The translations under genes and the position numbers were made by a program. 6,061 bases of DNA from a virus (lineage: Duplodnaviria > Heunggongvirae > Uroviricota > Caudoviricetes): the IMG/VR virus record IMGVR_UViG_2734482558_000010; one strand, given 5' to 3'. Below are positions 2,901-4,132 of this stretch, piece by piece (the first letter of the stretch is position 1; every line of letters begins with the position of its first letter). The notes under the pieces were generated by a model. That model was not told where the DNA came from. It did no database searches and saw only the letters and a program-made list of their open reading frames with translations.

Positions 2901-3281
2901 ATGACCGAGCGCATAGAATTTGTTTTACCTTACCCGCCGACGGTGAACACTTACTGGCGTCGTCGTGGCAGCACATATTTTGTATCAAAAGCCGGGGAGC
3001 GTTATCGCCGGGCAGTGGCGCTTATTGTTCGCCAGCAGCGGCTGAAATTAAGCCTGTCCGGAAGGTTGGCAATAAAAATTATTGCAGAACCACCGGATAA
3101 GCGCCGCCGTGACCTGGACAATATTCTGAAAGCGCCGCTGGATGCGCTGACGCATGCGGGGTTGCTAATGGACGATGAGCAGTTTGATGAAATCAATATC
3201 GTTCGTGCTCAGCCAGTATCTGGTGGACGTCTGGGGGTGAAGATTTATCCCATAATGCTTGAAGGGCAGGTCAAAAAATGA
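2901..3281 (+). CDS. rusA: RusA-family Holliday-junction resolvase (crossover junction endodeoxyribonuclease), 126 aa
   Basis: Size and conserved acidic motif (PPDKRRRDLDNILK...LMDDEQFDE) typical of RusA; the TGA overlaps the next gene's ATG (ATGA at 3278-3281). Confidence 0.85.
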   Translation: MTERIEFVLPYPPTVNTYWRRRGSTYFVSKAGERYRRAVALIVRQQRLKLSLSGRLAIKIIAEPPDKRRRDLDNILKAPLDALTHAGLLMDDEQFDEINIVRAQPVSGGRLGVKIYPIMLEGQVKK

Positions 3282-4132
3282 AACTGGAAGATTTACCGAA
3301 ATACTACTCCCCAAAATCCCCCGGCCTGACTGATGCATCGGCCTCAACGTCGAAAGATGCGCTGAGTATCACTGATGTGATGGCCGCGCAGGGCATGACA
3401 CAGAATCGGGCTGAGATGGGGGTTTCTGCGTTCCTTGGGAAAATGGGCATTAGTATGAATGACAGAGAGCGGGCAACAGAATTGCTGACAGAATATGCAC
3501 TCAGTCGGTGTGATCGCGTGGCGGCGTTAAGAAAACTCCCGGCAGAAATAAAACCGGCAGTGATGCGTATTATGGCTTCGTATGCGTTTGAAGATTATGC
3601 CCGTAGCGCGGCGAGCAAAAAACAGTGCCCCTGCTGTCACGGAAAAAAATTTATTGAAAGCGAGGTTTTTACAAACAAGATCCAGTATCCGGATGGTAAG
3701 CCGCCGGTATGGGCAAAGTGTACGAAAGGTGTGTATCCGTCTTACTGGGAAGAATGGAAAAAAGTCAGGGAGGTGGTAAAAGTTGCCTGTCCGGAGTGTG
3801 GCGGAAAGGGTGAGGTTTCCACCGCCTGTAAGGATTGCCGTGGGCGTGGTGTCGCCATTCATCGTGAAGAGTCGGTAAAACGTGGTATGCCTGTTATCAG
3901 AGACTGCCAGCGTTGTGGTGGTCGTGGCTATGAAAGACTACCATCAACGGAGGCATTTAATGCTATATGCGAGGTGACAAACCAGATAACACGCGCGTCA
4001 TGGGAAAAAACAGTTAAGAAATTCTATGATGCGCTGGTGACTCGGTTTGATATTGAAGAAGCATGGGCTGAGCGGCAGTTAAAAAAGGTAACTAGGTTGA
4101 TTTTTCCGGAATCTGTGGTAAATTCGTCATAA
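3278..4132 (+). CDS. Putative late-gene antiterminator Q-like protein (QuuQ/YdfT-like), 284 aa, with four Cys-pair motifs
   Basis: Sits directly after rusA and directly before a pR'-like promoter, pause element and tR'-like terminator. Contains CPCCHGKK, CPECGGKG, CKDCRGRG and CQRCGGRG (the last three are CxxCxGxG zinc-ribbon type). Family assignment is from position and motifs, not from a search. Confidence 0.5.
   Translation: MKLEDLPKYYSPKSPGLTDASASTSKDALSITDVMAAQGMTQNRAEMGVSAFLGKMGISMNDRERATELLTEYALSRCDRVAALRKLPAEIKPAVMRIMASYAFEDYARSAASKKQCPCCHGKKFIESEVFTNKIQYPDGKPPVWAKCTKGVYPSYWEEWKKVREVVKVACPECGGKGEVSTACKDCRGRGVAIHREESVKRGMPVIRDCQRCGGRGYERLPSTEAFNAICEVTNQITRASWEKTVKKFYDALVTRFDIEEAWAERQLKKVTRLIFPESVVNSS

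What the first reader, a model, noticed from the sequence alone, without database searches (positions are those of the whole stretch)
3278..4132. Q-like antiterminator carries a DnaJ-type CxxCxGxG zinc-ribbon cluster
The 284-aa protein sits exactly where the late antiterminator Q is expected (after rusA, overlapping the pR'-like promoter). It contains four Cys-pair motifs within about 110 residues: CPCCHGKK, CPECGGKG, CKDCRGRG and CQRCGGRG. The last three have the CxxCxGxG spacing typical of DnaJ-type zinc fingers, which is not how I recall the single Cys4 zinc finger of lambda Q. It is either a member of a large Q family (Q82/QuuQ-like) or a different DNA/RNA-polymerase-binding module in the Q position.
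Basis: partly seen in the sequence, partly recalled or inferred. Interest (0 to 1): 0.5.

Follow-up and report, generated by a model that had tools for sequence, protein, structure and literature searches.

The report
Ordinary phi80-type phage Q antiterminator

Summary
The ORF 3278-4132(+) and its four Cys-pair motifs (aa 117, 171, 184, 210) are real. All eight cysteines are invariant in 107 homologues.

[quoted passage not shown] It matches solved lambda Q at E=4e-41, and its AlphaFold model matches the engaged Q-lambda structure 7ubn_Q (E=6e-14). It is not Q82-like (PF06323), not Q21-like (PF06530) and not a foreign module.

Compared with lambda Q it carries a 66-aa insertion (aa 117-183) holding knuckles 1 and 2. 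Knuckles 3 and 4 correspond to lambda's own Zn site. Lambda's single finger is itself built from two CxxCxGxG knuckles.

The four-knuckle form is the commoner architecture in the family. It occurs in phi80 Q (41% identity) and K-12 QuuQ (40%). The gene is present in 2513 of 5426 complete E. coli genomes. The exact 284-aa protein is already deposited as "antitermination protein Q [Shigella sonnei]".

Downstream lies a lambda/phi80-like pR': -35, a QBE-like TTCCGGA, -10 TAAATT, the pause element AACTATGGG, a terminator, then tRNAs. The overlap of the ORF with the promoter comes from an 8-bp deletion that removes the normal stop codon. Novelty is low.

The parts
3278..4132 (+). Q antiterminator ORF, 284 aa plus stop. 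Q-lambda family, phi80/QuuQ subtype.
   Evidence: PF03589 at 179 bits. phrog_127 at E=4.7e-112. Lambda Q 7ubm_Q at E=4e-41. Foldseek hit to 7ubn_Q at E=6e-14. The exact sequence is deposited as 'antitermination protein Q [Shigella sonnei]'.
3278..3457 (+). N-terminal about 60 aa. Counterpart of the lambda Q segment that refolds with NusA into the RNA-exit-channel nozzle.
   Evidence: Aligns with lambda Q residues 1-60. AF2 predicts helices 3-10, 31-44 and 46-55 around a low-confidence loop. The best structural match is the NusA-engaged state 7ubn_Q. The role is taken from PMC9388147.
3626..3826 (+). Extra zinc ribbon (aa 117-183): knuckle 1, a long beta-hairpin, knuckle 2 and a short linker. 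Absent from lambda Q.
   Evidence: It is a gap in lambda Q and in P0178 in alignment A3. AF2 predicts strands 125-136 and 159-170, flanked by the two knuckles. It is 54% identical to phi80 Q, the best-conserved segment between the two proteins.
3827..3928 (+). Lambda-type zinc ribbon (aa 184-217). Knuckles 3 and 4 correspond to lambda Q C118/C121 and C144/C147.
4097..4129 (+). Eleven-codon C-terminal tail (LIFPESVVNSS), created by an 8-bp deletion that removed the normal stop codon. It overlaps pR'.
   Evidence: Alignment with E. coli 6817 and phage mEp460. All homologues end at ...VTR. The same junction is found in only 4 of 5426 complete E. coli genomes. The exact protein is on 366 contigs named Shigella sonnei.
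4097..4102 (+). pR' -35 element, TTGATT.
   Evidence: Same position as lambda TTGACT and the annotated phi80 -35 TTGCAT.
4104..4110 (+). Q-binding-element-like TTCCGGA in the promoter spacer.
   Evidence: Same offset from the -35 element as the annotated phi80 gp17(Q) binding site TCGCGGA, with 5 of 7 bases identical. Binding is inferred, not tested.
4119..4124 (+). pR' -10 element, TAAATT.
   Evidence: Identical to the lambda pR' -10 in the same arrangement.
4131..4139 (+). Sigma70-dependent pause element: a -10-like AACTAT followed by a GGG discriminator-like sequence. The likely +1 is at 4131.
   Evidence: Lambda has AACGAT at +1 to +6 followed by GGG (PMC4005639). phi80 has AACGCTGGG, E. 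coli 6817 has AACGATGGG.
4172..4198 (+). Intrinsic terminator (tR'-like), about 40-65 nt downstream of the start site.
   Evidence: Stem of 7 pairs followed by a T-run. It appears in the predicted RNA fold. phi80 has an annotated terminator at the equivalent distance.
4235..4310 (+). tRNA with CAT anticodon (annotated tRNA-Ile in a RefSeq relative). First gene downstream of the terminator.
4411..4487 (+). tRNA-Arg (TCT), downstream cargo of the late transcript.
2901..3281 (+). rusA (Holliday-junction resolvase) immediately upstream. Its stop codon overlaps the Q start codon (ATGA).
   Evidence: PF05866 at E=1.5e-16. Sequence.

Best explanation
The ORF encodes a late-gene transcription antiterminator of the Q-lambda family (PF03589), of the long phi80-Q/QuuQ subtype, in a lambdoid prophage of Shigella sonnei or E. 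coli.

The mechanism is inferred by homology with lambda Q. The helix-turn-helix body and the zinc-ribbon arm bind a Q-binding element in the spacer of the adjacent pR' promoter (around TTCCGGA, 4104-4110). Meanwhile RNA polymerase is held at a sigma70-dependent pause by the -10-like element AACTAT-GGG (4131-4139). Q then transfers to the polymerase. With NusA, its N-terminal ~60 residues refold into a nozzle on the RNA-exit channel. The polymerase reads through the terminator at 4172-4198 into the tRNA genes and the late genes.

The 'DnaJ-type cluster' is the arm. Lambda Q's arm is one zinc ribbon closed by two CxxCxGxG knuckles. Here a second ribbon is inserted directly in front of it: knuckles 1 and 2 around a ~46-residue beta-hairpin. 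The protein therefore most likely binds two Zn ions, one at C117/C120/C171/C174 and one at C184/C187/C210/C213.

What is shown here: family membership, the anatomy of the insertion, and the conserved promoter, pause-element and terminator layout. What is inferred: DNA binding, antitermination activity, the Zn pairing, and any role for the extra ribbon.
For: Family membership:
- PF03589 scores 179 bits against a 26.7-bit cut-off.
- phrog_127 'anti-termination protein Q-like' matches at E=4.7e-112 over residues 1-273.
- phmmer against the PDB finds lambda Q at E=4e-41. Lambda 1-123 aligns with query 1-122, and lambda 116-207 with query 182-273.
- The AF2 model has mean pLDDT 82. Its top eight Foldseek PDB hits are all lambda Q chains, the best being 7ubn_Q at E=6e-14 and TM 0.76 normalised to the target.

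Subtype:
- phi80 gp17 (Q) is 41% identical over its full length, including the insertion.
- K-12 QuuQ is 40% identical.
- At least 19 of 28 full-length 50%-identity representatives have four knuckles by the regex count, and 3 have two.

Regulatory context:
- The pR' region aligns element by element with lambda and with the annotated phi80 pR', Q-binding site and terminator.
- The identity of the lambda pause element is confirmed in PMC4005639.
- The terminator is found.

Zn pairing:
- Knuckles 3 and 4 align with lambda's Zn ligands at the same 22-residue spacing.
- The arm-only model superposes on 4mo1_A at rmsd 2.7 A over 48 residues with 31% identity.
- Two 12-residue strands are bracketed by knuckles 1 and 2.

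The roles of the lambda Q body, arm and N-terminus are taken from PMC9388147.
Against: No activity was tested.

This allele carries an 11-residue C-terminal extension. In lambda Q the C-terminal helix (residues 195-207) refolds, and residues 202 and 206 touch the beta flap-tip helix (PMC9388147). The tail could therefore impair function.

The insertion sits between lambda residues 110-117 and 122-126, which together contact the beta' zinc-binding domain in lambda. The arm must therefore dock somewhat differently, and no long-form Q structure exists.

The simple sigma70 consensus scan did not call the promoter.

The knuckle 2-3 segment resembles the single Zn site of anti-TRAP in sequence, so a DnaJ-like nested Zn pairing is not excluded.

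Confidence: 0.9

Rival explanations
1. The gene is a decayed, non-functional Q allele of a cryptic prophage. The 8-bp deletion adds 11 residues to the C-terminal helix that contacts the polymerase flap tip, and makes translation run across the promoter. The protein belongs to the family but no longer antiterminates efficiently.
For: The deletion and tail are specific to this lineage. All 100+ homologues end at ...VTR. The lambda Q C-terminus contacts the beta flap-tip helix (PMC9388147). The tail has pLDDT below 50. The neighbourhood looks like a Qin-type cryptic prophage, with hok/sok, a DUF968 gene and a masked stretch.
Against: The rest of the ORF is intact and 97% identical to the common E. 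coli allele. The exact protein is kept on 366 contigs. The promoter, pause element and terminator are intact. A disordered tail may be harmless.
Confidence: 0.25
2. The four knuckles form a DnaJ-like nested two-zinc domain, with knuckles 1+4 and 2+3 paired, rather than two ribbons in tandem (1+2 and 3+4).
Confidence: 0.2
3. It is a member of another Q family (Q82 or Q21), or a non-Q DNA/RNA-polymerase-binding protein that has replaced Q at this position.
For: Only the unusual number of Cys motifs compared with lambda Q.
Against: No hit to PF06323 or PF06530 at E<=0.01, against 179 bits to PF03589. Homology to lambda Q extends from residue 1 to 273. The fold matches lambda Q.
Confidence: 0.02
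4. It is a DnaJ-like chaperone or zinc-finger holdase. One homologue is labelled 'chaperone protein DnaJ' in NCBI.
For: P0029 carries that name. There are weak hits to PF00684 and TIGR02349.
Against: TIGR02349 scores 28 bits against a cut-off of 377. PF00684 is below its cut-off. No J domain and no DnaJ C-terminal domain is hit. The rest of the protein is lambda Q.
Confidence: 0.01

Closest known systems
Phage phi80 Q (gp17, AFV29194.1, 269 aa)
   Same: 41% identity over the full length. Same four knuckles and the same ~66-aa insertion, which at 54% identity is the best-conserved segment. Same pR' layout, with a Q-binding site one base after the -35 element, a -10-like pause element followed by GGG, and a terminator about 45-70 nt downstream.
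   Different: Knuckle 3 is CxC in phi80 and CxxC here. [quoted passage not shown] The spacer sequences differ (TCGCGGA versus TTCCGGA). phi80 Q has no 11-aa tail.
Phage lambda Q (PDB 4MO1, 7UBJ-7UBN)
   Same: Same family (PF03589). The N-terminal nozzle segment, four-helix body, Zn ribbon made of two CxxCxGxG knuckles and C-terminal helix all align (E=4e-41; Foldseek E=6e-14). The -10 element TAAATT is identical and the pause element nearly so.
   Different: Lambda Q lacks residues 117-183, the second zinc ribbon with its long hairpin. Its arm is 39 aa, against about 105 aa here. The Q-binding-element sequence is different. Lambda's terminated transcript is much longer: its terminator lies about 190 nt downstream, against about 65 nt here.
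E. coli K-12 QuuQ / YdfT (Qin cryptic prophage, 250 aa)
   Same: 40% identity and four knuckles. It also lies next to a DUF968 (YdfU) gene, with hok and rem genes upstream.
   Different: The hairpin between knuckles 1 and 2 is shorter, with 17 alignment gaps. There is no rusA between the DUF968 gene and Q in Qin.
DnaJ cysteine-rich (CR) domain and anti-TRAP (PF00684; PDB 1EXK, 2BX9)
   Different: There is no J domain and no DnaJ C-terminal domains. The score is below the Pfam cut-off. The likely Zn pairing is tandem rather than nested. The motif sits inside a Q-lambda scaffold.
Q21 (PF06530) and Q82 (PF06323) families
   Same: Same regulatory role and same genome position (PMC9388147).
   Different: No detectable sequence similarity. 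According to PMC9388147, Q21 has a different fold from lambda Q.

Membership tests
Q-lambda antiterminator family (Pfam PF03589) | Match to the family profile above the curated cut-off | tested here: met
   179 bits against a cut-off of 26.7, E=1.8e-53. Also phrog_127 at E=4.7e-112.
Q-lambda antiterminator family (Pfam PF03589) | End-to-end homology to lambda Q, including the N-terminal ~60 residues that form the nozzle | tested here: met
   Lambda 1-123 aligns with query 1-122, and lambda 116-207 with query 182-273. E=4e-41.
Q-lambda antiterminator family (Pfam PF03589) | Cys4 zinc ribbon ('arm') equivalent to lambda C118/C121/C144/C147 | tested here: met
   C184/C187/C210/C213 align with them at identical spacing and are invariant in 107 homologues. 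Zn binding itself was not measured.
Q-lambda antiterminator family (Pfam PF03589) | Fold of the four-helix body with helix-turn-helix plus arm | tested here: met
   The AF2 model (pLDDT 82) matches 7ubn_Q at E=6e-14 and TM 0.76 normalised to the target. The top eight hits are all lambda Q chains.
Q-lambda antiterminator family (Pfam PF03589) | Gene lies directly upstream of a late promoter with a Q-binding element, a sigma-dependent pause element and a terminator | tested here: met
   -35 at 4097, TTCCGGA at 4104, -10 TAAATT at 4119, AACTATGGG at 4131, terminator at 4172-4198. The layout is collinear with lambda and with the annotated phi80 features. The evidence is sequence-level only.
Q-lambda antiterminator family (Pfam PF03589) | QBE-dependent loading and NusA-assisted terminator read-through | not testable with these tools
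   Needs in vitro transcription or a reporter assay.
phi80-Q / QuuQ long subtype | Second pair of Cys knuckles inserted N-terminal to the lambda-type ribbon | tested here: met
   Alignment A3 with phi80 Q, QuuQ and short-linker forms. By a regex census at least 19 of 28 full-length representatives have four knuckles.
Q82 family (PF06323) and Q21 family (PF06530) | Match to the family profile | tested here: not met
   Neither family is listed at E<=0.01 in the Pfam scan. The family definitions come from PMC9388147.
DnaJ / Hsp40 (TIGR02349; PF00226 + PF00684 + PF01556) | J domain and DnaJ C-terminal domains | tested here: not met
   No such Pfam hits. TIGR02349 scores 28 bits against a cut-off of 377.
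DnaJ-type cysteine-rich domain (PF00684) | Profile match above the cut-off, and the CR-domain fold | tested here: inconclusive

The most novel reading that the evidence does not exclude
The extra zinc ribbon of the long (phi80/QuuQ-type) Q proteins is a distinct contact module. It splits the surface that in lambda Q touches the beta' zinc-binding domain, and it projects a hairpin of variable length. Long-form Qs would therefore load onto paused RNA polymerase with a geometry, or a partner (upstream DNA, sigma region 4, NusA), that differs from the solved lambda Q complexes. No long-form structure exists, although this is the commoner architecture of the family.
Probability: 0.25. Interest if true: 0.4.

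Novelty: already known. Interest (0 to 1): 0.12.

Why it matters
It matters little for discovery. The exact protein is already deposited and correctly named. The gene sits in about 46% of complete E. coli genomes. A 41%-identical relative, phi80 Q, appears in the title of a cited DNA-binding study (Guo and Roberts 2004, not held here).

Two modest points are worth keeping:
1. All solved Q-lambda structures are of the short, one-ribbon form. Most of the family's sequence diversity, including phi80 Q and K-12 QuuQ, has a two-ribbon arm, and the docking of that arm on RNA polymerase is unknown.
2. The Shigella sonnei allele has lost its stop codon through an 8-bp deletion. This is a natural test of whether the Q C-terminus tolerates an extension.

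The analysis also explains why some homologues are mislabelled 'chaperone protein DnaJ'.

Tried and rejected
- Q82 or Q21 membership: rejected, no Pfam hit.
- DnaJ chaperone: rejected. There is no J domain, and TIGR02349 scores far below its cut-off.
- Simple sigma70 consensus scan: it did not call the pR' promoter (8 of 12 matches, below the tool's threshold). The promoter assignment therefore rests on collinearity with lambda and phi80.
- Leader RNA fold: it is not significantly more stable than shuffled sequences (z=-1.3). Only the terminator hairpin is meaningful.
- Rfam: nothing credible in the leader, only a sub-threshold Trp_leader hit.
- Fold search of the arm against viral predicted structures (BFVD): only weak hits (E>=0.01) to small Cys-rich or DnaJ-CR-like phage proteins, so uninformative.
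- The afdb50 fold library was unavailable.
- Guo and Roberts 2004 (PMC415771) and Vorobiev 2014 (PMC3951671) are not held. I could not check whether the second ribbon of phi80 Q is explicitly described there.
- Literature searches for QuuQ, YdfT or AntQ together with zinc, and for PF03589 together with CXXCXGXG, found no description of the doubled ribbon.
- Zn pairing could not be measured directly, because model coordinates are not exposed by the tools.

Full report
**Observation.** The window has an ATG-initiated ORF at 3278-4132 on the + strand, 284 codons plus TAA. Its start codon overlaps the stop codon of the upstream rusA gene in ATGA (RusA PF05866).
- CPCCHGKK at aa 117 (nt 3626-3649)
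- CPECGGKG at aa 171 (nt 3788-3811)
- CKDCRGRG at aa 184 (nt 3827-3850)
- CQRCGGRG at aa 210 (nt 3905-3928)

They are not a chance pattern. In an alignment of 107 homologues of 55-97% identity, all eight cysteines are invariant columns. In most relatives knuckle 1 is also a full CxxCxGxG.

**What the protein is.** Pfam places it in PF03589 'Antitermination protein Q' at 179 bits, against a cut-off of 26.7. PHROGs places it in phrog_127 'anti-termination protein Q-like' over residues 1-273. Against the PDB, the best sequence match is lambda Q itself (7ubm_Q, E=4e-41). Lambda residues 1-123 align with query 1-122, and lambda 116-207 with query 182-273.

An AlphaFold2 model built on the 107-sequence alignment has mean pLDDT 82. 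Its eight significant Foldseek hits in the PDB are all lambda Q chains. The best is the NusA-engaged state 7ubn_Q (E=6e-14, TM 0.76 normalised to the target, 273 aligned columns).

According to Yin et al. 2022 (PMC9388147), Q proteins fall into three unrelated families: Q21 (PF06530), Q-lambda (PF03589) and Q82 (PF06323). This protein hits only the second. The 'Q82-like' suggestion is therefore wrong, and so is the 'different module in the Q position' suggestion.

**Anatomy of the cysteine cluster.** Lambda Q's 'arm' (residues 114-152) is a zinc ribbon (PMC9388147). Its sequence, CRDCHGTG-x18-CGRCKGVG, is itself two CxxCxGxG knuckles. The knuckle type is thus the same as in lambda. What differs is the number.

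In a MAFFT alignment with lambda Q, phi80 Q, K-12 QuuQ and other representatives, the lambda-like proteins simply lack the segment from knuckle 1 to just before knuckle 3. That segment is 66 residues here, aa 117-183. Knuckles 3 and 4 align with lambda C118/C121 and C144/C147, with the same 22-residue spacing, the same CxDC and a recognisably homologous hairpin.

An arm-only AF2 model (aa 109-221, pLDDT 75) superposes on lambda Q 4mo1_A over 48 residues at rmsd 2.7 A with 31% identity. That fits the knuckle 3-4 register. Both models predict two 12-residue strands (125-136 and 159-170), immediately bracketed by knuckles 1 and 2, with a less confident tip between them.

I therefore infer two zinc ribbons in tandem: Zn-A at C117/C120/C171/C174 and Zn-B at C184/C187/C210/C213. 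A DnaJ-like nested pairing (1+4, 2+3) is not excluded. The knuckle 2-3 segment resembles the single Zn site of anti-TRAP, and I could not read model coordinates.

This is a resemblance of a small zinc-knuckle module, not membership of the chaperone family. There is no J domain, and TIGR02349 scores 28 bits against a cut-off of 377. The resemblance probably explains why one homologue is labelled 'chaperone protein DnaJ' (P0029).

**How common is the four-knuckle form?** It is the commoner form.
- Among the 50%-identity cluster representatives found by an exhaustive HMMER search (234 proteins at E<=0.001), I took those of 195-300 aa with a Q-type N-terminus. A regex count finds four knuckles in 19 of these 28, and two (lambda-like) in 3. 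In three of the four scored 3 or 5, the count is off only because knuckle 1 is a variant or an extra Cys pair is present; the fourth is truncated after knuckle 3.
- The linker between knuckles 1 and 2 ranges from about 6 to about 60 residues. Within the close family, the hairpin tip is the least conserved part.
- Phage phi80 Q (gp17, 269 aa) is 41% identical over its full length. [quoted passage not shown]
- E. coli K-12 QuuQ/YdfT is 40% identical and also has four knuckles.
- DNA at least 80% identical to this gene is present in 2513 of 5426 complete E. coli genomes, annotated 'antitermination protein'.
- The exact 284-aa sequence is already in public collections as 'antitermination protein Q [Shigella sonnei]', on 366 contigs.

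**Regulatory context.** Immediately downstream, the sequence is collinear with lambda pR' and with the annotated phi80 pR':
- -35 TTGATT (4097-4102)
- TTCCGGA (4104-4110), at the same offset as the annotated phi80 Q-binding site TCGCGGA
- -10 TAAATT (4119-4124), identical to lambda
- AACTATGGG (4131-4139)

In lambda, the -10-like AACGAT at +1 to +6 and the following GGG induce the sigma70-dependent pause that Q needs (PMC4005639). phi80 has AACGCTGGG, and a close E. coli relative has AACGATGGG.

A terminator hairpin with a T-run follows at 4172-4198, about 65 nt from the presumed start, as in phi80. Then come a tRNA with CAT anticodon (annotated tRNA-Ile in a relative), a tRNA-Arg (TCT) and a second tRNA-Arg copy. 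The simple sigma70 scan did not call the promoter, so the assignment rests on homology of layout.

**Why the ORF overlaps the promoter.** Relatives end the protein at ...KKVTR followed by TAA. The window lacks 8 bp (AGGTAACA, between short direct repeats) that contain this stop codon. The frame therefore continues for 11 codons (LIFPESVVNSS) across the -35 element, spacer and -10 element, and stops at 4130-4132.

The same junction occurs in only 4 of 5426 complete E. coli genomes, but it is the allele deposited for Shigella sonnei. The tail is predicted to be disordered. In lambda Q the C-terminal helix contacts the beta flap-tip helix (PMC9388147), so the tail might impair function. I rate this rival at 0.25.

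**Mechanism.** By homology with lambda Q (PMC9388147), the body and arm bind the Q-binding element while RNA polymerase is paused at the sigma-dependent pause element. Q contacts sigma region 4, the beta' zinc-binding domain and the flap tip. With NusA, the N-terminal ~60 residues refold into a nozzle that extends the RNA-exit channel and blocks terminator hairpin formation.

The insertion lies between the counterparts of lambda residues 110-117 and 122-126, which together contact the beta' zinc-binding domain in lambda. The long arm must therefore dock somewhat differently. What the extra ribbon contacts is unknown, and no long-form structure is in the PDB.

**Verdict.** The only residual open point is structural: how the two-ribbon arm of the commoner long-form Q proteins engages RNA polymerase.

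Noticed in passing
window 4090-4132: An 8-bp deletion (AGGTAACA) relative to E. coli 6817 and phage mEp460 removes the Q stop codon. Translation now runs 11 codons across the pR' -35, spacer and -10 elements. The allele is rare in complete E. coli genomes (4 of 5426), but it is the deposited Shigella sonnei form (366 contigs).
   Followed up: yes
window 939-1264: A hok/sok-type toxin-antitoxin locus: Rfam sok at 112 bits (939-1114), and a 70-aa Mok/Hok-like ORF at 1052-1264.
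   Followed up: partly
window 5595-5784: STnc100 sRNA (Rfam RF02076, 123.6 bits) downstream of the second tRNA-Arg. A 2026 preprint links STnc100 and PasD sRNAs to neighbourhoods that contain a PF03589 Q gene.
   Followed up: partly
window 4380-4500 and 5411-5531; N-run 5133-5401: A 121-nt direct repeat (91% identity) carries two copies of tRNA-Arg (TCT), 1031 nt apart. Between them lie a 117-aa ORF (4598-4951, no Pfam hit) and a 269-nt masked run of N. This may be an insertion or duplication in the tRNA cluster.
   Followed up: partly
window 4235-4310: ARAGORN calls this tRNA-Met (CAT), but the equivalent gene in E. coli 6817 is annotated tRNA-Ile. It is probably an ileZ-like tRNA-Ile2 read through lysidine modification.
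   Followed up: no
window 1842-2900; L001 1568-2617: The 352-aa DUF968/HNH (YdfU-like) protein upstream of rusA has a homologue in the phage mEp460_ev081 record that is labelled 'Phage antitermination protein Q'. That is probably a mis-annotation, as the real Q is the next-but-one gene.
   Followed up: no
window 1273-1354: A sub-threshold match to the Gifsy-1 sRNA isrK (25.8 bits against a cut-off of 50) lies just after the hok/sok locus. In Salmonella, isrK lies next to the gene for the Q-like antiterminator AntQ.
   Followed up: no
proteins P0001 and P0029: P0001 (337 aa, one 1.8-kb contig) has six knuckles, an apparent duplication of the extra ribbon that may be an assembly artefact. P0029 (Serratia quinivorans) is named 'chaperone protein DnaJ', a likely mislabel caused by the CxxCxGxG motifs.
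   Followed up: no
proteins P0197 and P0201: Representatives of 319-326 aa join a DUF968-like N-terminus (it shares the window DUF968 protein's CWHCDNQL motif) to the Q C-terminal half. These are probably deletion fusions in decaying prophages.
   Followed up: no
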